This document shows, piece by piece, positions 46,956 through 53,100 of a DNA stretch of 64,000 nt. Below the pieces are notes generated by a model. It had not been told where the DNA came from and did not search any database. It saw only the letters and a list, made by a program, of their open reading frames with translations. Made by a program: the position numbers and the translations under genes. The DNA is from Flexilinea sp. Lineage in GTDB: Bacteria; Bacillota; Clostridia; Oscillospirales; Oscillospiraceae. The DNA lies in assembly GCA_963615825.1 (NCBI GenBank), contig CAVEIY010000001.1, positions 3,200 to 67,199 on the forward strand. The letters run 5' to 3'. Each line of letters starts with the position of its first letter. The stretch's first letter is position 1.

Positions 46956-47131
46956 AAACCTTCTATCCCCTCAGCAATGTATATTTGATCGTGTTACTTC
47001 CTCGTGTGCCCTAAAATGTATCGACATGTGAAAGCCCGCGTTGCGATGCGTTCCAGGAGCTCTGATACTACTGGAATATTCTTCGGATTGTTACGCAGCT
47101 GTTGTTTTGAGATCTATGGATTCACCTGATA

Positions 47132-47156
47132 ATTACATAATCAGCATTATGTGATA
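47132..47156. repeat. Inverted repeat, left arm (IR-L) of putative inverton
   Basis: ATTACATAATCAGCATTATGTGATA. The exact reverse complement lies at 47403-47427. Confidence 0.9.
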
Positions 47157-47402: not shown

Positions 47403-47427
47403 TATCACATAATGCTGATTATGTAAT
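47403..47427. repeat. Inverted repeat, right arm (IR-R)
   Basis: TATCACATAATGCTGATTATGTAAT is the reverse complement of IR-L, 25/25. Confidence 0.9.
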
Positions 47428-47444
47428 GGTCTGGATTATTGCGA

Positions 47445-48284
47445 TTATAGCAGTAGACCAAGGCCATCAATTTTTTTCTGGTGCTCCATACCGGTAGACA
47501 TAATATAGATCCGCGTTGTGTTGATGCTGCTGTGTCCCAGCAAATCTGCCAGCTTTGCAATGTCCTTTTCCAGTTCATAAAATGTCTTTGCAAAGAGCTT
47601 TCGCAGATTATGCGGAAAAACCTTTTCCCGTAATACATGGGCTTGGGTACAGAGTTGCTTCATTTCAGCCCATATATTACAGCGGTTGACTGCTTTTCCG
47701 CTTTTGGTTCGGAATATTATCCCGCTTTTAATATGATTCTGCTGTGCATAGGCCAGCAGAATTTTTTTCAATTTATGAGGAATTAAAATTGGCCGTGTTT
47801 TTCCCTTGCAAGAGACGATGACTTCCCCTTTACGCACCATCTCCACGGTAAAAAAGCGCAGTTCTGATACTCGGATTCCGGTGCTGCATATTGTCTCCAA
47901 GATAAGCTTGAGGCGTGGCTGATGCTCTGCTGCACGGAGAAGCCGCATATATTCCTTTTTGGTAAGCTCCTTATTTTCTGTTAAATAGGTCTGGCGCTGC
48001 AGTTTTATGCTTTTTACCTTACAATCTCCGCATTCCATGTAGTCGAGTAAGCAATTGACAGCGGCAAGCATGGAGTTTACAGAACGAACGGCATACCCTT
48101 TTTCTATTAGCGCCTGTTTATATTGAACAACCAATTCCTTTGTTAGGGTCTGGCTTCCAATGAACTTTAAAAAGCAGCCAGTATCATGACGATATTTTTG
48201 GATTGTAGCGGAGCTTCGTTCTTCATGGACCAAATAAGTGAAAAAACCATTCATTACTTCATCCGTTATTTTATCCTGTCTCAT
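47445..48284 (-). CDS. Tyrosine-type site-specific recombinase (phage integrase/Xer family), candidate invertase
   Basis: N-terminal SAM-like core-binding domain. Catalytic set GIRVSELR (R), CKGKTR (K), PHNLRKLF (HxxR), LGHSSINTTRIY (H, Y). Start moved to ATG 48284 behind GGGAGGA. Confidence 0.85.
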   Translation of the reverse strand: MRQDKITDEVMNGFFTYLVHEERSSATIQKYRHDTGCFLKFIGSQTLTKELVVQYKQALIEKGYAVRSVNSMLAAVNCLLDYMECGDCKVKSIKLQRQTYLTENKELTKKEYMRLLRAAEHQPRLKLILETICSTGIRVSELRFFTVEMVRKGEVIVSCKGKTRPILIPHKLKKILLAYAQQNHIKSGIIFRTKSGKAVNRCNIWAEMKQLCTQAHVLREKVFPHNLRKLFAKTFYELEKDIAKLADLLGHSSINTTRIYIMSTGMEHQKKIDGLGLLL

Positions 48285-48470
48285 TGTGTTTCCTCCCAAA
48301 TTCAATAGATACCTATAATATAGCATTTCTCATTCAAAAGAATAAAGAAGCGTGAGACAGAATTTGCTCCGGGCCTGCAAGTGAATGGGTTGCGCTGCCG
48401 TGAAAATTGTGATCCTTTCGTCCGCAGAGAAAAGCCGCTGATTTCCAAAGAAATCGGCGGCTTTTTCAAA

Positions 48471-48577: not shown

Positions 48578-48712
48578 TTAAAATCCCTCATAGATAAATT
48601 CGCCGTTTCCGGTGAAAAACAGGAAAATGGCCAGCAGCATCAGGGCGTAAAGCAGAACCTGAACAGGGAGGCTTCCTAAAAAACGAGAAAACTTTGATGT
48701 TCGCTTTTTCAT
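48578..48712 (-). CDS. DltX-like small membrane protein (44 aa), not in the ORF track
   Basis: Hand translation gives MKKRTSKFSRFLGSLPVQVLLYALMLLAIFLFFTGNGEFIYEGF. One TM plus a C-terminal FIYxxF-type motif, as in DltX. ATGA overlap with the upstream gene's stop. Confidence 0.65.
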   Translation of the reverse strand: MKKRTSKFSRFLGSLPVQVLLYALMLLAIFLFFTGNGEFIYEGF

Positions 48713-49605
48713 TGGCACAACCACTCCTCAATTGCATTTGTGAACTGAACCGCGCCGACCTCACGGTTCAGGTGACCCAGATCATAAAATCCCTCACGGT
48801 CAATGGAATTCCGCATGTCCAAAACGTCGATTCCCGACTCCTGAAACATCGTAATTGCCTCGTCCATCACCTCGGCGGGGTAACCGTCAAAGGTATAATA
48901 GGGATTGAGCGGGGCGCAGAGAACGCGAAGGCGTATGCCGTGCTGCTGACAATAGTTGATGATCCGGCGGGTTGCAGCAAAGTTCTTCTTGTAATAGCTC
49001 AGATCCTTGTTGTAGTATTGCTCGGCTTGGGCGGAGATGATTTGATCCAGCTCATCATCGCTTAAACTGCCGTGGCACTCGGAACGGCTGAGATCGGTAT
49101 AACGGGTGATGCCGGAAAGGCTGTGTGTCTCCAGAAGGCTTTTGGCGGTATTTTCGGCAGCGGTCATCAGACGGTCCCGCTGGAAGTATACATACGGCTC
49201 CAGGGGAAGCCTGTGCCAGGGATAGGAGGGGTCCGTGCTGATGATGTCGGAGAAGGTCAGGTAATTGACCATAACCACCAGATCGGTTCCGGGGGAGAGA
49301 TAACCCTTTGTCAGCTCGGCCTCCAGGTCCAGCATTGTGCCATAGACAATGCCAAAATTGACATAGCCGGATTGACTGCGATCCTCCAGATACCCGGCGC
49401 CAACGACAGAGTTTCCCCACAGTACCTTGTCAAAGGCGGTCTTTCCGTCGTGGGAGATGACGGCACGTTCATAGTCGTTTTTGGGGAAGAGCGTGCTTTG
49501 CTCTACCGGGGCCAAAGCGGTCAAAATAAGGTCGATTCCAACCAGTACAGCCAACAGGAGCAGGATAAAGCGAAGCTCCAATAACAGATGTTTCAGTTGT
49601 TTCAT
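48709..49605 (-). CDS. DltD-like / SGNH-type membrane-anchored acyl-transfer protein
   Basis: N-terminal TM anchor. LWGNSVV (GxS block) and DLGHL (DxxH block). Position matches DltD after the MBOAT. Shorter than canonical DltD. Start at ATG 49605 behind GAGGTG. Confidence 0.55.
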   Translation of the reverse strand: MKQLKHLLLELRFILLLLAVLVGIDLILTALAPVEQSTLFPKNDYERAVISHDGKTAFDKVLWGNSVVGAGYLEDRSQSGYVNFGIVYGTMLDLEAELTKGYLSPGTDLVVMVNYLTFSDIISTDPSYPWHRLPLEPYVYFQRDRLMTAAENTAKSLLETHSLSGITRYTDLSRSECHGSLSDDELDQIISAQAEQYYNKDLSYYKKNFAATRRIINYCQQHGIRLRVLCAPLNPYYTFDGYPAEVMDEAITMFQESGIDVLDMRNSIDREGFYDLGHLNREVGAVQFTNAIEEWLCQ

Positions 49606-49613
49606 TGCGCACC

Positions 49614-50753
49614 TCACAGTTTGAAAAAGCCATGCAAAACTTGAAGCAGCTGGTCATACTGAAGGGTAAAGACCAGCGTGTTCAGGGCAAATGCGGCGTT
49701 TACAAACAGGCATCGGGCGAGATAAACGGAGCGCTTCACCTTCCGCTTGTTGACGGAGGTTTGCTCAAGCAGGTTTTCAATGGCCAAAAGCGCACCATTA
49801 TATACGCCAGCAATGAGGTACAGCCAGGAAAATCCATGCCAAAGACTCATGACGACCATGGTGAGCAGGGCGATCAGGGCAGAGATGCTGCGTTTGAGCT
49901 TCTTCTTGTTGAGCAGAATAAAAATGTGCTCCCGAATCCAATCGGACAGAGTGGAATGCCAGTTTCTCCAAAACTGAGTAAAGGATGGAGAGGCCCAGGG
50001 ACGCTTGAAGTTCTCGGGAACGGCATAGCCTGCCATACGGCCCATGCCGATGGCAATGTCACTGTAGCCGGAAAGATCAAAATACAGTTCCAGATAGCTC
50101 AGCAGCAGGGCCAGTATGCTCAGGTACCAATGAGCGCCAAAGGTCAAAAGCAAATTCATTCCGCGAATGACCAGAGAAACCAGCACCACTTTTTTGAAAA
50201 AGCCCCGTACAATTCGCTTGAAGTCCAGCGTGAACTCCTGGCAGGTCATAGGAACGGGGGCATTGTAGGTTCGTAAGAAAGCGCTGTAGCGGAAGATCGG
50301 CCCTGCGGTAAAGACCGGCAAAAACAGCATGTAGTTGAGATACGGGAGAACAGCAATCTTTTCTCGGGTATAGTACACATAGTAAAGGGTGTCTATTTGC
50401 TTGAGCATCTGAAAGGCGATGCCGATACAAACCAGAGGGAAAGGCAGAGAAAGGCCAAACGCCTCGAATCGGGTCAGGAAAAACGGAACAAGCGCCACAA
50501 GGGAGAAGCCCAGAAATAGAATCCAATGGTGGAACCGATACAGAAGCCAATTGCATAGCATGCTGAGTCCCAGGTAGATCAGATAAAACGCTGCCAGACG
50601 TAGACCAATGAGGGCTAAAATCCCCAGCTCTGCGATGGGGAGCAGGGTGCGGAACCAGAGCGGCTTCTTTCGCTCCAGCGTTACCCGCAGCAGTGCAGTG
50701 ACCGCAACATACAAAACCAAAATCCCAAGGGTTTGGGTTTCAAGATACCACAT
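49614..50753 (-). CDS. MBOAT family O-acyltransferase (DltB-like)
   Basis: 379 aa, about 10 TM. Conserved His context MVVMSLWHGFSW. Confidence 0.8.
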   Translation of the reverse strand: MWYLETQTLGILVLYVAVTALLRVTLERKKPLWFRTLLPIAELGILALIGLRLAAFYLIYLGLSMLCNWLLYRFHHWILFLGFSLVALVPFFLTRFEAFGLSLPFPLVCIGIAFQMLKQIDTLYYVYYTREKIAVLPYLNYMLFLPVFTAGPIFRYSAFLRTYNAPVPMTCQEFTLDFKRIVRGFFKKVVLVSLVIRGMNLLLTFGAHWYLSILALLLSYLELYFDLSGYSDIAIGMGRMAGYAVPENFKRPWASPSFTQFWRNWHSTLSDWIREHIFILLNKKKLKRSISALIALLTMVVMSLWHGFSWLYLIAGVYNGALLAIENLLEQTSVNKRKVKRSVYLARCLFVNAAFALNTLVFTLQYDQLLQVLHGFFKL

Positions 50754-50756
50754 GGT

Positions 50757-51236
50757 TTACCCTCCAAGCTTCTTGTATGTCAGCTGGCAAAATGGAAGAT
50801 AGCCATGCTTTTGAAACCAGCGCAGGCTATGCTGGTTTTCACAAATGACCTCGCTCTCCACAATCGGGACGCCCAACTCCGTCAGCCAAGCTTCGACATA
50901 TTCCAGAAGCTTGTCCGCCACGCCGCTGCCCCGATATGCGGGGGAAACACAGATATCATTGATTTTTCCCATCAGGCGAAGGCCGTCGCAGCTCAGCTTC
51001 CGATCCATGCGATTGACAGATGCGGAGAGAAAGCCGCAGATGGCTCCATCTGCTTCTGCAACTGCAAGACAGCACATCTTTGAGCGCAGAAGAATGTTCA
51101 GAATATCGTCCAGTTCGTCCTGTGCGAAGGTGAACGGAAAGGTCATGGTGCACAGCAGCCCATAAAGGTCCCCGTAGAGCGCGGAAACTGCGTCCAAATC
51201 CTCGGGGACCGCTCTGCGAATGATGACGTCGCTCAT
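50757..51236 (-). CDS. GNAT family N-acetyltransferase embedded in the Dlt-like operon
   Basis: 159 aa. Acetyl-CoA motif VSPAYRGSGVADKLLEYV. ATGA overlap with the carrier-protein gene. 3 nt from the MBOAT start. Confidence 0.8.
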   Translation of the reverse strand: MSDVIIRRAVPEDLDAVSALYGDLYGLLCTMTFPFTFAQDELDDILNILLRSKMCCLAVAEADGAICGFLSASVNRMDRKLSCDGLRLMGKINDICVSPAYRGSGVADKLLEYVEAWLTELGVPIVESEVICENQHSLRWFQKHGYLPFCQLTYKKLGG

Positions 51237-51481
51237 GACAGCTTCTTGCCAATGACCTCGGCAATTTCGCGGATGCTGTTCATGGGATACAGAATCAGGT
51301 CCTTCTGCGTGATTTCCACGTTCCAGGTATCCTCAATGAATTCAATGATTTCAAAGGAACCCAGAGAGTCCAGATAACCGTATTCAAACATGTCGATCTC
51401 GGGGGAAAAATCCGGGTCGTCGGCGTCAATGTCAAAGTGCTCCAGGATAAAGTCATACAGCTTTTGTTCAATTTCGTTCAT
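51233..51481 (-). CDS. Acyl/peptidyl carrier protein (DltC-like)
   Basis: 82 aa and acidic. Phosphopantetheine site YLDSLGSFE. Confidence 0.8.
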   Translation of the reverse strand: MNEIEQKLYDFILEHFDIDADDPDFSPEIDMFEYGYLDSLGSFEIIEFIEDTWNVEITQKDLILYPMNSIREIAEVIGKKLS

Positions 51482-51499
51482 ATGAAAGGCTCCTTGTGG

Positions 51500-53020
51500 T
51501 TAAAAGGTGGATTTTAATGTAACGCGGTCAATTTTGCCGTTGGGGGTTTGGGGAAGCTCCTGCATGCACACCAGACGGGTGGGGAGCATATAGCTGGGCA
51601 GAATCTTCCGCAGCTCCATGTTCAGCTTCCGGAGAATGAGCTTCTCGTCGGTTTCTGCAAAAAGGACAATGTCCTCCTTTGCCGCGTCGAACAGGGCAGC
51701 GGCGTTTCCAATGGCGGGAATGCACTTGGCGGCGGTTTCAATTTCGCCAAGCTCAATGCGGTTGCCACGGTGCTTGATTTGGGAATCTGCCCGACCAACG
51801 AACATCAGGTTGCCGTCTGCGGCCCAATAGGCCAAATCGCCGGTTCGATACATACGATCGTCGTAATAGTGCTGCATTGGGTTCTGGACAAATGCTTTTC
51901 GGGTAATCTCCTGGGCATTCCAGTAACCGCGGGCCAGGGCGCTGCCCTGAATGCACAGATCGCCGGTTTCTCCCACATCACAGAGGGTGTTGTCCGGGCG
52001 AAGCACCAGCGCACGCATATTTCTGCACGCTTTTCCGATGGGCAGCGTATCGCCGTCGGAGAATTCGCGGTCCACGATATAATAGGTGCAGACGTCGGTG
52101 ATTTCCGTTGGACCGTACAGGTTGGCATACATGGCATCCGGCAGGGCTTTACGCCAAATGTTTAACTGACGGTTTGGCATAACCTCGCCGCAGAATAGAA
52201 TTTTTTTCAAATCCGGCAGCTCCAGATCCGCCAGGGCGTTGTGATTGGCAACGCTAATCATTACGGTTGGAACCCAGAAGATGGTGTTGATCCGGTTGTC
52301 ACGGACATATTCCATCAGCTGGGAGGGAAAACGGAACAGCACGGCGGGAATCAGATAAACGGTGGCGCCGGTTCGGCACATGGTGTAGAGATCGAATGTA
52401 GAGTTATCGAAGTAGAATGCAGACTGATTCCCCAATACGGTATGTTCATCAAATTGGAAGGTGTCCCTGAGCCAGTCGGCGTAGTCCAGAATGCCACGAT
52501 GCGGGATGGTAACGCCCTTGGGAACGCCGGTGGAACCGGAGGTAAACATAATATAGATGGGATCGGAATCAATGACGGCAGAGACGGCCTGTTCAATGGC
52601 AGAATGGTTGATTTCGGCTTCCAGTGCGTCCTCCAGCAAGAGCACCTTTACTGCGCTGAGGTTCACGTTTTCAAGCCGGGAAACCATGTCTCGGCTGGTA
52701 ATCAGAAAGCCTTCTCCCAAACTTGCAGCAATGGATTCCAGACGCACCATTGGAATGTCGTCGGCAACAGGGACGTAAGGATTTCCGCTGTATTGCGCGC
52801 CGAGATAGCAGCTAACGGCAGCAATCGACTTTGGAAGATAGACGATCAGCGGAGTGAGTCCCCTGGCAGCGCCGCGGGCGGCCAATAGTGCGGAACCGAT
52901 GGCCTTGGCCTGCTGCGCAAGCTGCGCAAAGGTAACAGAGCCATTGGCATCCACAACAGCGGTTTTATCGGAAAACTTTTGAGCGGTTTGTTCAAACATT
53001 CGGACGGCTGTATTCAACAT
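51500..53020 (-). CDS. Amino acid adenylation enzyme, stand-alone A domain (DltA-like carrier-protein ligase)
   Basis: 506 aa. Motifs FTSGSTGVPKGV, YGPTE, YRTGD, GRADSQIKHRGNRIELGEIE and PNGKIDR. Confidence 0.85.
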   Translation of the reverse strand: MLNTAVRMFEQTAQKFSDKTAVVDANGSVTFAQLAQQAKAIGSALLAARGAARGLTPLIVYLPKSIAAVSCYLGAQYSGNPYVPVADDIPMVRLESIAASLGEGFLITSRDMVSRLENVNLSAVKVLLLEDALEAEINHSAIEQAVSAVIDSDPIYIMFTSGSTGVPKGVTIPHRGILDYADWLRDTFQFDEHTVLGNQSAFYFDNSTFDLYTMCRTGATVYLIPAVLFRFPSQLMEYVRDNRINTIFWVPTVMISVANHNALADLELPDLKKILFCGEVMPNRQLNIWRKALPDAMYANLYGPTEITDVCTYYIVDREFSDGDTLPIGKACRNMRALVLRPDNTLCDVGETGDLCIQGSALARGYWNAQEITRKAFVQNPMQHYYDDRMYRTGDLAYWAADGNLMFVGRADSQIKHRGNRIELGEIETAAKCIPAIGNAAALFDAAKEDIVLFAETDEKLILRKLNMELRKILPSYMLPTRLVCMQELPQTPNGKIDRVTLKSTF

Positions 53021-53071: not shown

Positions 53072-53100
53072 AGTATAGCATAATCCAACAGGCTTCGCAA
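53072..53100 (-). promoter_or_regulatory. Sigma-70-like promoter of the Dlt-like operon
   Basis: Minus strand has TTGCGA (53100-53095), 17-nt spacer, TATACT (53077-53072). Confidence 0.5.

What the first reader, a model, noticed from the sequence alone, without database searches (positions are those of the whole stretch)
48578..53020. Dlt-like esterification operon with rearranged gene order and an inserted GNAT acetyltransferase
All five functional types of the D-alanylation machinery are present: a stand-alone adenylation enzyme, a carrier protein with a DSL Ser, an MBOAT, an SGNH/DltD-like anchored protein and a DltX-like peptide. The order is A-C-GNAT-B-D-X rather than the canonical X-A-B-C-D. 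The DltD-like protein is ~100 aa shorter than typical DltD. A GNAT is translationally coupled between the carrier protein and the MBOAT. The operon lies immediately upstream of the recombinase, inverton and capsule locus on the same strand. One possibility is that the exported aminoacyl group is N-acetylated, or that the amino acid is not D-alanine. The acceptor could be the neighbouring polysaccharide rather than teichoic acid.
Basis: partly seen in the sequence, partly recalled or inferred. Interest (0 to 1): 0.62.

Follow-up and report, generated by a model that had tools for sequence, protein, structure and literature searches.

The report
Dlt-like amino-acid esterification operon, not Dlt
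This gut Clostridia genome carries a six-gene operon built like the machine that puts D-alanine on teichoic acids, but it belongs to a separate, apparently undescribed sister family that probably attaches a different, possibly N-acetylated, amino acid to a cell-surface polymer.

Summary
Six tightly packed minus-strand genes (53020-48578) encode an adenylation enzyme, a carrier protein, a GNAT, a short MBOAT, an anchored SGNH protein and a 44-aa microprotein ending FIYEGF. They have their own promoter-like site and terminator.

It is not a canonical Dlt operon. A, B, C and D all score below NCBI's Dlt cut-offs. The A-domain code DNFFLCLDVK differs at 7 of 10 positions from a validated DltA (DVCVVCAVLK) of the same bacterial class. 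That DltA lies in a genome that also carries this paralogous cluster.

The cluster defines a compact family in at least 80 Clostridia species, with an invariant C-B-D-X core. The GNAT is a dedicated orthologue found at three positions. It occurs only where the A enzyme keeps Cys301. Many loci carry a second A with another code, and nearly all carry a ~1000-aa FG-GAP lipoprotein whose best fold match is PelA. The window's subclade lacks that lipoprotein.

The operon is absent from 40 related genomes. Its adjacency to the capsule locus is not conserved.

Best reading: a Dlt-type acyl-shuttle pathway moving a non-D-Ala, possibly N-acetylated, aminoacyl group. The amino acid and the acceptor are unknown.

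The parts
53072..53100 (-). promoter-like site (TTGCGA-17-TATACT with TG) about 50 nt upstream of the A start codon
   Evidence: the upstream SDR gene ends in its own hairpin (sequence)
51500..53020 (-). stand-alone amino-acid adenylation enzyme (A), 506 aa; specificity code DNFFLCLDVK
   Evidence: TIGR01733 331.6 > 317.4; DltA models 284-294 bits, below cut-offs 476/560; code; PDB
51233..51481 (-). 82-aa carrier protein (C), phosphopantetheine Ser in YLDSLG
   Evidence: PP-binding 26 bits; DltC models 17.7-20.4 bits, below cut-offs 52/68
50757..51236 (-). 159-aa cytoplasmic GNAT N-acyltransferase; start overlaps the C stop (ATGA)
   Evidence: orthologous family specific to the cluster
49614..50753 (-). 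379-aa short MBOAT (B), DltB-type architecture without a C-terminal shuttle motif
   Evidence: TIGR04091 150.8 < 375; the only PDB sequence hits are DltB, E 1.6e-26; the WHstLS and LWHG His motifs are kept
48709..49605 (-). 298-aa N-terminally anchored SGNH-fold transferase (D); alternative GTG start at 49617 gives 302 aa. Conserved Ser70, Asp279 and His282 (302-aa numbering)
   Evidence: family, invariant columns; model pLDDT 93.4; SGNH esterases and DltD, E about 1e-4; hhalign on the C-terminal DxxH module
48578..48712 (-). 44-aa DltX-like microprotein (X): basic N-terminus, one TM helix, C-terminal FIYEGF (= FXYXXF)
   Evidence: motif definition from PMC12148441
48477..48505 (-). intrinsic terminator (13-bp stem plus T-run) ending the operon; second hairpin at 48430-48465

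Best explanation
This is an autonomous six-gene operon for a carrier-protein-dependent MBOAT/SGNH 'acyl-shuttle' pathway. It works like Dlt but belongs to a separate paralogous family.

Proposed mechanism:
1. The A enzyme activates an alpha-amino acid with ATP. Asp235 and Lys517 are present, and the pocket code DNFFLCLDVK is not that of DltA. A loads the amino acid as a thioester on the phosphopantetheine arm of the 82-aa carrier protein.
2. The cytoplasmic GNAT uses acetyl-CoA to N-acetylate the tethered aminoacyl group. This step is inferred and is the weakest one.
3. The short MBOAT passes the acyl group across the membrane to the Tyr of the C-terminal FIYEGF motif of the 44-aa microprotein.
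4. The anchored SGNH protein (Ser70/Asp279/His282) takes the acyl group and esterifies an extracytoplasmic glycopolymer.

What is shown here is gene content, motifs, folds, conservation and non-identity with Dlt. The chemistry of every step, the identity of the amino acid and the acceptor are inferred.

In most family members the acceptor is probably a polysaccharide handled by an adjacent FG-GAP lipoprotein whose best fold match is PelA. This window's subclade has lost that gene, so its acceptor is open.
For: Components and motifs:
- All six proteins and their family assignments.
- DltB is the only PDB sequence match of the MBOAT, and both His motifs are kept.
- The D model (pLDDT 93.4) matches SGNH esterases and DltD.
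- Ser70, Asp279 and His282 are invariant in 17 homologues.
- The C-terminal DxxH module aligns with canonical DltD.
- X ends in FXYXXF, the acyl-shuttle motif described in PMC12148441.
- A natural MBOAT-SGNH fusion of this family exists.

Not Dlt:
- Every Dlt equivalog cut-off is missed. The same models pass on the canonical operon of genome G007 (DltA 483.7 > 476, DltB 409.9 > 375, DltC 55.3 > 52.35, DltD 269.4 > 150).
- G007 also carries this paralogous cluster (L031).
- The A code DNFFLCLDVK compares with DVCVVCAVLK for that DltA. The GrsA ruler reproduces DAWTIAAICK.

Family:
- 98 matching stretches were found; 80 loci from Clostridia were analysed, and the C-B-D-X core is present in every complete locus.
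- Additional A paralogues have other codes: DNFFVALVDK and DNFFLAMDIK.

GNAT:
- It is present at three positions.
- Its presence needs at least 5 gains or losses on the B+D tree, 3 of them forced by well-supported branches.
- The only strong GNAT hit in carrier genomes is the in-cluster copy.
- GNAT-less carriers have no orthologue elsewhere in the genome.
- It has conserved GNAT motifs.
Against: - No biochemical datum exists.
- The A code does not match any specificity I can name, so 'not D-Ala' rests on pocket differences only. Cys301, the residue linked to D-Ala selection in DltA (my own knowledge), is kept.
- 9 of 10 carrier genomes tested have no canonical DltB, so the family could be their only Dlt-type system.
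- The GNAT's substrate is unknown, and a generic GNAT fold says nothing about it.
- The window's D protein itself has no Pfam or NCBIfam hit and no BLASTP similarity to canonical DltD.
- The window's B+D branch is long (0.8) and the FG-GAP partner is missing, so function here could be altered or decaying.
- The MAG is only 63% complete.
Confidence: 0.6

Rival explanations
1. It is simply this lineage's divergent D-alanylation (Dlt) system. It puts D-Ala on lipoteichoic or wall teichoic acid, and the GNAT is peripheral.
For: - The logic and motifs are the same as in Dlt.
- Cys301 in LFCGE is kept, as in DltA.
- 9 of 10 carrier genomes lack a canonical DltB.
- LtaS-like sulfatase genes follow X in about 8 loci.
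Against: - 7 of 10 pocket positions differ from a validated Clostridia DltA, including Val330 to Asp.
- All Dlt equivalog cut-offs are missed, while the control operon passes them.
- It coexists with a complete canonical dlt operon in G007.
- Second and third A paralogues have different codes.
- It is absent from all 40 genus, family and order relatives, which is unlike a housekeeping envelope function.
- The own MAG shows no clear LtaS.
Confidence: 0.2
2. The GNAT is a loader rather than a modifier. It transfers acetyl from acetyl-CoA onto the carrier's thiol, as the GNAT loading domains of some polyketide synthases do. The machine then installs O-acetyl groups as well as aminoacyl groups. 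Extra A enzymes and the GNAT would be interchangeable 'loader' modules for one carrier.
For: - The GNAT and the second A occupy the same slot between the first A and C/B.
- Every locus with a Cys301-type A has either a GNAT or a second A (51 loci), and none of the 10 others does.
- Precedent from my own knowledge: the CurA-type GNAT loading domain.
Against: - It is a small RimI/AAC(6')-like GNAT with no similarity to PKS loading domains in the searches run.
- Other MBOAT systems take acetyl-CoA directly (PMC12148441), so a carrier detour is unnecessary.
- Only 2 phylogenetically independent contrasts support the association.
Confidence: 0.1
3. The acceptor is not a polymer but a membrane lipid, glycolipid or small molecule, i.e. 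an aminoacyl-lipid or natural-product tailoring pathway.
For: - The A enzyme scores as a generic NRPS-type adenylation domain, about as close to NRPS A domains as to DltA.
- The carrier's best NCBIfam hit is a lipid-pathway ACP (OlsHI), although far below its cut-off.
- The acceptor is entirely untested.
Against: - All characterised MBOAT + SGNH + FXYXXF systems modify envelope polymers (PMC12148441).
- The near-universal neighbour is a secreted lipoprotein whose best fold match is PelA, with an FG-GAP propeller.
- In some loci X is fused to a large multi-TM protein with only a weak, sub-threshold glycosyltransferase (PMT_2) hit, and LtaS-like genes follow.
- No condensation or thioesterase domains are present in any locus.
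Confidence: 0.08

Closest known systems
Dlt pathway (DltX-DltA-DltB-DltC-DltD) for D-alanylation of teichoic acids in Firmicutes
   Same: - Stand-alone A enzyme, small carrier protein and short MBOAT without its own shuttle motif.
- Separate single-TM microprotein ending in FXYXXF.
- N-terminally anchored SGNH-type transferase with a Ser and a C-terminal DxxH.
- Tightly coupled operon.
   Different: - Identity to a same-class canonical operon is 26-30% for A, B and C and undetectable for D.
- All equivalog cut-offs are missed.
- The pocket code is different.
- D is about 100 aa shorter.
- The family carries a dedicated GNAT, frequent extra A paralogues and an FG-GAP lipoprotein.
- It coexists with true Dlt in one genome.
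AlmE-AlmF-AlmG of Vibrio cholerae (glycine modification of lipid A; from my own knowledge, not tested here)
   Same: This is a precedent for a DltA/DltC-like pair retuned to another amino acid and used to decorate an envelope molecule.
   Different: AlmG is a cytoplasmic-face lipid A acyltransferase. That system has no MBOAT, SGNH protein or microprotein, and the bacterium is Gram-negative.
PatA/PatB, AlgI/AlgJ/AlgX and WssH/WssI MBOAT-SGNH O-acetylation systems
   Same: MBOAT plus SGNH partner, with an acyl-Tyr shuttle motif FXYXXF (PMC12148441).
   Different: Those systems use acetyl-CoA directly. They carry the motif on two extra TM helices of a longer MBOAT, and they have no adenylation enzyme or carrier protein. 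The other two MBOATs in this genome (472 and 517 aa ORFs) are longer and may be of that type (not examined).
PelA (Pel exopolysaccharide hydrolase/deacetylase). This applies only to the family's FG-GAP lipoprotein, which the window lacks.
   Same: It is the best Foldseek PDB match of the 1002-aa lipoprotein model (9cgy, E 1.6e-8, 378 aligned columns).
   Different: TM-score is low (0.24-0.29). The match covers only part of the protein, and which PelA domain it matches was not resolved. The rest is an FG-GAP beta-propeller plus other domains.

Membership tests
Dlt D-alanylation system | DltA equivalog (TIGR01734 / NF003417) at or above the curated cut-off | tested here: not met
   The window A scores 284.0 and 294.1 bits against cut-offs of 559.85 and 476. 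The control canonical DltA of G007 scores 483.7 > 476.
Dlt D-alanylation system | D-Ala-type substrate pocket (Stachelhaus positions) | tested here: not met
   Window DNFFLCLDVK against canonical DVCVVCAVLK: 7 of 10 positions differ. Only Asp235, Cys301 and Lys517 are shared.
Dlt D-alanylation system | DltB equivalog (TIGR04091) at or above the cut-off | tested here: not met
   150.8 bits against a cut-off of 375. The genome's other MBOATs score similarly. The canonical DltB of G007 scores 409.9.
Dlt D-alanylation system | DltC equivalog (TIGR01688 / NF003464) | tested here: not met
   17.7 and 20.4 bits against cut-offs of 52.35 and 68. The control DltC scores 55.3.
Dlt D-alanylation system | DltD (PF04914 / TIGR04092) | tested here: not met
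   - The window protein has no Pfam or NCBIfam hit.
- 6 of 17 homologues hit PF04914 weakly (best E 2e-6).
- BLASTP against canonical DltD finds nothing.
- Similarity exists only at fold level and in the C-terminal module.
Dlt D-alanylation system | DltX-type microprotein: single TM helix and C-terminal FXYXXF | tested here: met
   The 44-aa protein ends FIYEGF. The motif is conserved in most of the X ORFs found across the related loci; a few end differently. Motif definition from PMC12148441.
Dlt D-alanylation system | D-alanine esters on teichoic acid depend on the genes | not testable with these tools
   This needs biochemistry or genetics.
MBOAT-SGNH acyl-shuttle envelope acyltransferases | MBOAT with conserved catalytic His motifs | tested here: met
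   PF03062, E 2.1e-20. WHstLS and LWHG align with the corresponding DltB motifs.
MBOAT-SGNH acyl-shuttle envelope acyltransferases | Extracytoplasmic SGNH-fold partner with Ser and Asp/His | tested here: met
   - The model has pLDDT 93.4 and an N-terminal helix at residues 2-35.
- Top Foldseek hits are SGNH esterases and DltD.
- Ser70, Asp279 and His282 are invariant.
- Triad geometry was not measured because no coordinates were available.
MBOAT-SGNH acyl-shuttle envelope acyltransferases | Acyl-Tyr shuttle hexapeptide FXYXXF | tested here: met
NRPS-type amino-acid adenylation domains | TIGR01733 at or above the cut-off; Asp235 and Lys517 present | tested here: met
   331.6 > 317.4. The code starts with D and ends with K.
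GNAT N-acyltransferases | PF00583 at or above the cut-off; acyl-CoA-binding R/Q-x-x-G-x-G/A motif | tested here: met
   57.4 > 20.7. The motif RGSGVA is present, with G105 and A107 conserved in 35 of 38 orthologues.

The most novel reading that the evidence does not exclude
The operon belongs to an undescribed, modular family of Dlt-type machines in gut Clostridia. In this family one carrier protein is fed by interchangeable loader or modifier modules: a Cys301-type A enzyme plus either a dedicated GNAT or a second A enzyme. N-acetyl-aminoacyl or mixed aminoacyl esters, not D-Ala, are then exported through an MBOAT / Tyr-microprotein / SGNH relay onto an exopolysaccharide, rather than onto teichoic acid. 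If so, this would be the first Dlt-like pathway with on-carrier N-acetylation and a non-teichoic acceptor.
Probability: 0.3. Interest if true: 0.78.

Novelty: new variant of a known kind. Interest (0 to 1): 0.64.

Why it matters
Dlt is the only characterised carrier-protein-dependent MBOAT/SGNH pathway, and it is treated as a dedicated D-alanine machine. A sister family would show that the acyl-Tyr shuttle chemistry has been reused for other aminoacyl decorations of the Gram-positive surface. The relevant features of this family are a different substrate pocket, swappable loader enzymes, a dedicated GNAT and a lipoprotein whose best fold match is PelA.

The family sits in abundant but poorly studied gut Oscillospiraceae and Lachnospiraceae. 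There, surface charge and ester decorations are likely to affect resistance to host peptides, phage adsorption and immune recognition.

Cultured carriers exist: Vermiculatibacterium agrestimuris DSM 112226, Flavonifractor sp. An306 and Lachnospiraceae bacterium MD329. The cytoplasmic steps can be reconstituted with three small soluble proteins.

Tried and rejected
- **Capsule as acceptor by synteny.** Rejected as unsupported. The flanks are not conserved in the closest loci. No capsule gene recurs among 339 flanking ORFs. The operon has its own promoter-like site and terminator.
- **GNAT as an accidental insertion.** Rejected.
- **X-last order as a distinguishing feature.** Rejected. A canonical dlt operon in G007 is followed by an X-like ORF ending FVYSEF.
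- **Naming the amino acid from the code.** From memory, positions 239, 278 and 299 (F, F, L) resemble Ile/Val-type codes, but Asn236 and Asp330 fit no textbook code. No call was made.
- **Cys301 versus partner association.** The table is 51/0/0/10, but there are only 2 independent contrasts, so it is not testable statistically.
- **FG-GAP lipoprotein in the own genome.** Not found. It is also absent from the genomes of L004 and L005.
- **LtaS in the own MAG.** Only a weak sulfatase-family hit was found. This is uninformative at 63% completeness.
- **Literature.** Five searches found no paper on this paralogous family.
- **Earlier scan notes by sequence.** Only this genome was returned.

Full report
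**Observation**

Six minus-strand ORFs fill 53020-48578.
- A: 506 aa, 51500-53020.
- C: 82 aa, 51233-51481.
- GNAT: 159 aa, 50757-51236.
- B: 379 aa, 49614-50753.
- D: 302 aa from the GTG at 49617; more likely 298 aa from the ATG at 49605, which has a GAGGTG Shine-Dalgarno sequence and matches homologue lengths.
- X: 44 aa, 48578-48712.

The junctions are ATGA overlaps (C/GNAT and D/X), a 3-nt gap (GNAT to B) and a GTGA overlap or 12-nt offset (B/D). A promoter-like site (TTGCGA-17-TATACT with TG) lies at 53100-53072. A 13-bp-stem terminator with a T-run lies at 48505-48477, followed by a second hairpin at 48465-48430. The operon is therefore an autonomous transcription unit. It is separated by terminators from the recombinase (47445-48326), the inverted repeats (47125-47156 / 47403-47434) and the capsule genes downstream.

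**What the proteins are**

- **A** passes the amino-acid adenylation model (TIGR01733, 331.6 > 317.4) but not the DltA models (284-294 bits against cut-offs of 476 and 560). In the PDB it is about as close to NRPS A domains (197-230 bits per domain) as to DltA (212 bits).
- **C** is a PP-binding carrier with the Ser in YLDSLG. It is far below the DltC cut-offs.
- **The GNAT** is a small RimI/AAC(6')-like acetyltransferase with the RGSGVA acyl-CoA motif.
- **B** is an MBOAT whose only PDB sequence matches are DltB (E 1.6e-26). Both His motifs are kept. It scores 150.8 against a cut-off of 375 on the DltB equivalog. It has DltB's short architecture without a C-terminal shuttle motif.
- **D** has no Pfam or NCBIfam hit and no BLASTP similarity to a canonical DltD. 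Its AlphaFold model (pLDDT 93.4, N-terminal helix at residues 2-35) matches SGNH esterases and DltD structures at E about 1e-4. Ser70, Asp279 and His282 are invariant among 17 homologues. hhalign aligns its C-terminal DxxH module with DltD.
- **X** has one TM helix and ends FIYEGF. This is the FXYXXF acyl-shuttle motif whose Tyr carries D-Ala between DltB and DltD (PMC12148441).

**Not Dlt**

I used a within-class control. Genome G007 carries both this kind of cluster (L031) and, on another contig, a canonical operon. That operon's proteins pass the curated cut-offs: DltA 483.7 > 476, DltB 409.9 > 375, DltC 55.3 > 52.35, DltD 269.4 > 150.

The window's A, B and C are 28-30%, 28% and 26% identical to those proteins.

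I read the Stachelhaus positions using a GrsA fragment as ruler; it reproduces the known DAWTIAAICK. The window A reads DNFFLCLDVK and the canonical DltA reads DVCVVCAVLK. Only Asp235, Cys301 and Lys517 are shared, and Val330 is replaced by Asp. The canonical operon is also followed by an X-like ORF (…FVYSEF), so X-last is not special to this cluster.

**A conserved family**

A pattern and tblastn scan with the D alignment found 98 matching stretches in the one-genome-per-species collection. I analysed the best 80 loci. They are all Clostridia: Oscillospiraceae, Lachnospiraceae, Flavonifractor, Tissierellales and others.

In the 1.84-billion-protein representative library the D family is compact. 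It has 48 representatives at E <= 1e-30, followed by a sharp drop. One representative is a natural MBOAT-D fusion.

In every complete locus the core is C-B-D-X. The variable parts are:
- A-C-GNAT-B-D-X, a monophyletic clade of 17 that includes the window;
- A-GNAT-C-B-D-X;
- A-A-GNAT-C-B-D-X;
- A-A-C-B-D-X;
- A-C-B-D-X;
- A-C-B-D-X-GNAT;
- one A-A-C-A-B-D-X.

On a B+D tree, GNAT presence needs at least 5 changes, 3 of them forced by well-supported branches. The GNATs are orthologous. They are the only strong GNAT match in carrier genomes. Genomes with GNAT-less clusters have no orthologue elsewhere. The GNAT is thus a dedicated, optional module and not an accidental insertion.

**A-domain types**

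- The 'primary' A has DN[FL]F[LAVS]CLD[VA]K.
- Second A enzymes have DNFFVALVDK or DNFFLAMDIK.
- Single-A, GNAT-less clusters have DNFFAALDVK or DVMYAALDVK.

All 51 loci with a Cys301-type A also have a GNAT or a second A. All 10 loci without such a partner have Ala301. However, this reduces to 2 independent contrasts on the tree, so it is a lead only.

All family A enzymes are 43-58% identical to each other and 27-31% identical to canonical DltA. The extra A enzymes are therefore duplications within the family.

**A seventh gene that the window lacks**

In nearly all loci with enough flank, a ~1000-aa lipoprotein directly precedes A or follows X. It has FG-GAP repeats. Its model (pLDDT 89.8) matches PelA best (9cgy, E 1.6e-8), then GH42 enzymes and beta-propellers.

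The window, L004 and L005 form a well-supported subclade (99*) that lacks this gene. It was not found elsewhere in their genomes.

Other recurrent neighbours are LtaS-like sulfatase genes after X in about 8 loci. In Flavonifractor-type loci, the X motif is the C-terminus of a 411-521-aa multi-TM protein with a weak PMT_2 hit. These point to a membrane-proximal glycopolymer as acceptor for the family, but they do not identify it.

**Context in this genome**

The flanks (two SDR genes, recombinase, inverton, capsule) are not syntenic with the closest loci. The operon is absent from all 20 same-genus genomes and all 20 same-family or same-order genomes searched. It is therefore an accessory, probably horizontally acquired, trait of this species. 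That agrees with the long branch of the window's B+D (0.8).

The own MAG (63% complete) has no canonical DltB or DltD and no clear LtaS. The capsule-as-acceptor idea rests on adjacency alone.

**Mechanism and confidence**

The relay A -> C -> B -> Tyr of X -> Ser of D -> acceptor follows from the one-to-one correspondence with the characterised Dlt mechanism (PMC12148441) and from the retained catalytic motifs. I rate it about 0.85.

That the amino acid is not D-Ala rests on the pocket code, the coexistence with true Dlt and the paralogue diversity. I rate it about 0.65.

That the GNAT N-acetylates the carrier-bound aminoacyl group is inference from its cytoplasmic location, its acetyl-CoA motif, its dedicated conservation next to A and C, and the retained Asp235, which implies a free alpha-amine at activation. 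I rate it about 0.4.

The rivals are a divergent true Dlt, the GNAT as an acetyl loader, and a lipid or small-molecule acceptor.

**Novelty**

Five full-text searches found no description of this paralogous family. It is a new variant of a known kind of system, namely the MBOAT/SGNH acyl shuttle of the Dlt type.

Noticed in passing
L007:587-3592 (+); also L013, L015, L016, L020, L022, L033:8005-10869 and about 55 other loci: A ~1000-aa lipoprotein with FG-GAP repeats directly precedes A or follows X in nearly every family locus. It is missing from the window, L004 and L005. Its best fold match is PelA (9cgy, E 1.6e-8). It may define the acceptor polymer of the family.
   Followed up: partly
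L083:7731-9293, L066:7776-9293, L025:7716-9257, L047:7773-9005, L082:4333-5907: In Flavonifractor-type loci the FFTGNG-FIYE-F shuttle motif is the C-terminus of a 411-521-aa multi-TM protein (weak PMT_2 hit) instead of a microprotein. This is a third way of carrying the acyl-shuttle motif, besides the free microprotein and fusion to the MBOAT.
   Followed up: partly
P0028 (717 aa, metagenome protein): A natural fusion of this family's MBOAT (42% identical to the window's B) with the SGNH D domain (residues 417-708).
   Followed up: partly
L084:3493-3720 (-), genome G007: A canonical dltA-B-C-D operon (all four over NCBI cut-offs) is followed, not preceded, by a DltX-like ORF ending FVYSEF. The same genome also carries the paralogous cluster (L031).
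   Followed up: yes
L022:8030-9964, L031:8021-10510 and about 6 further loci: LtaS-like sulfatase-domain membrane proteins lie immediately downstream of X. One of them has an SLH domain.
   Followed up: partly
80 family loci (A-domain position 301): Cys301 in the A pocket occurs only when the cluster also has a GNAT or a second A (51 loci). All 10 single-A, GNAT-less loci have Ala301. Only two independent evolutionary contrasts support this.
   Followed up: partly
window 47125-47156 and 47403-47434: 32-nt inverted repeats (91% complementary) flank a 246-nt segment between the tyrosine recombinase gene and the Wzz/kinase/CpsB/sugar-transferase capsule genes. This is an invertible-promoter layout.
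   Followed up: partly
window 48578-53020 against genomes G034-G073: The whole operon is absent from 20 same-genus genomes and 20 same-family or same-order genomes. It is a species-specific accessory trait whose nearest relatives (B+D at most 53% identical) are in other Clostridia lineages.
   Followed up: yes
L006:5798-6942: The MBOAT gene is split into two overlapping ORFs in this MAG. This is a possible frameshift or assembly error.
   Followed up: no
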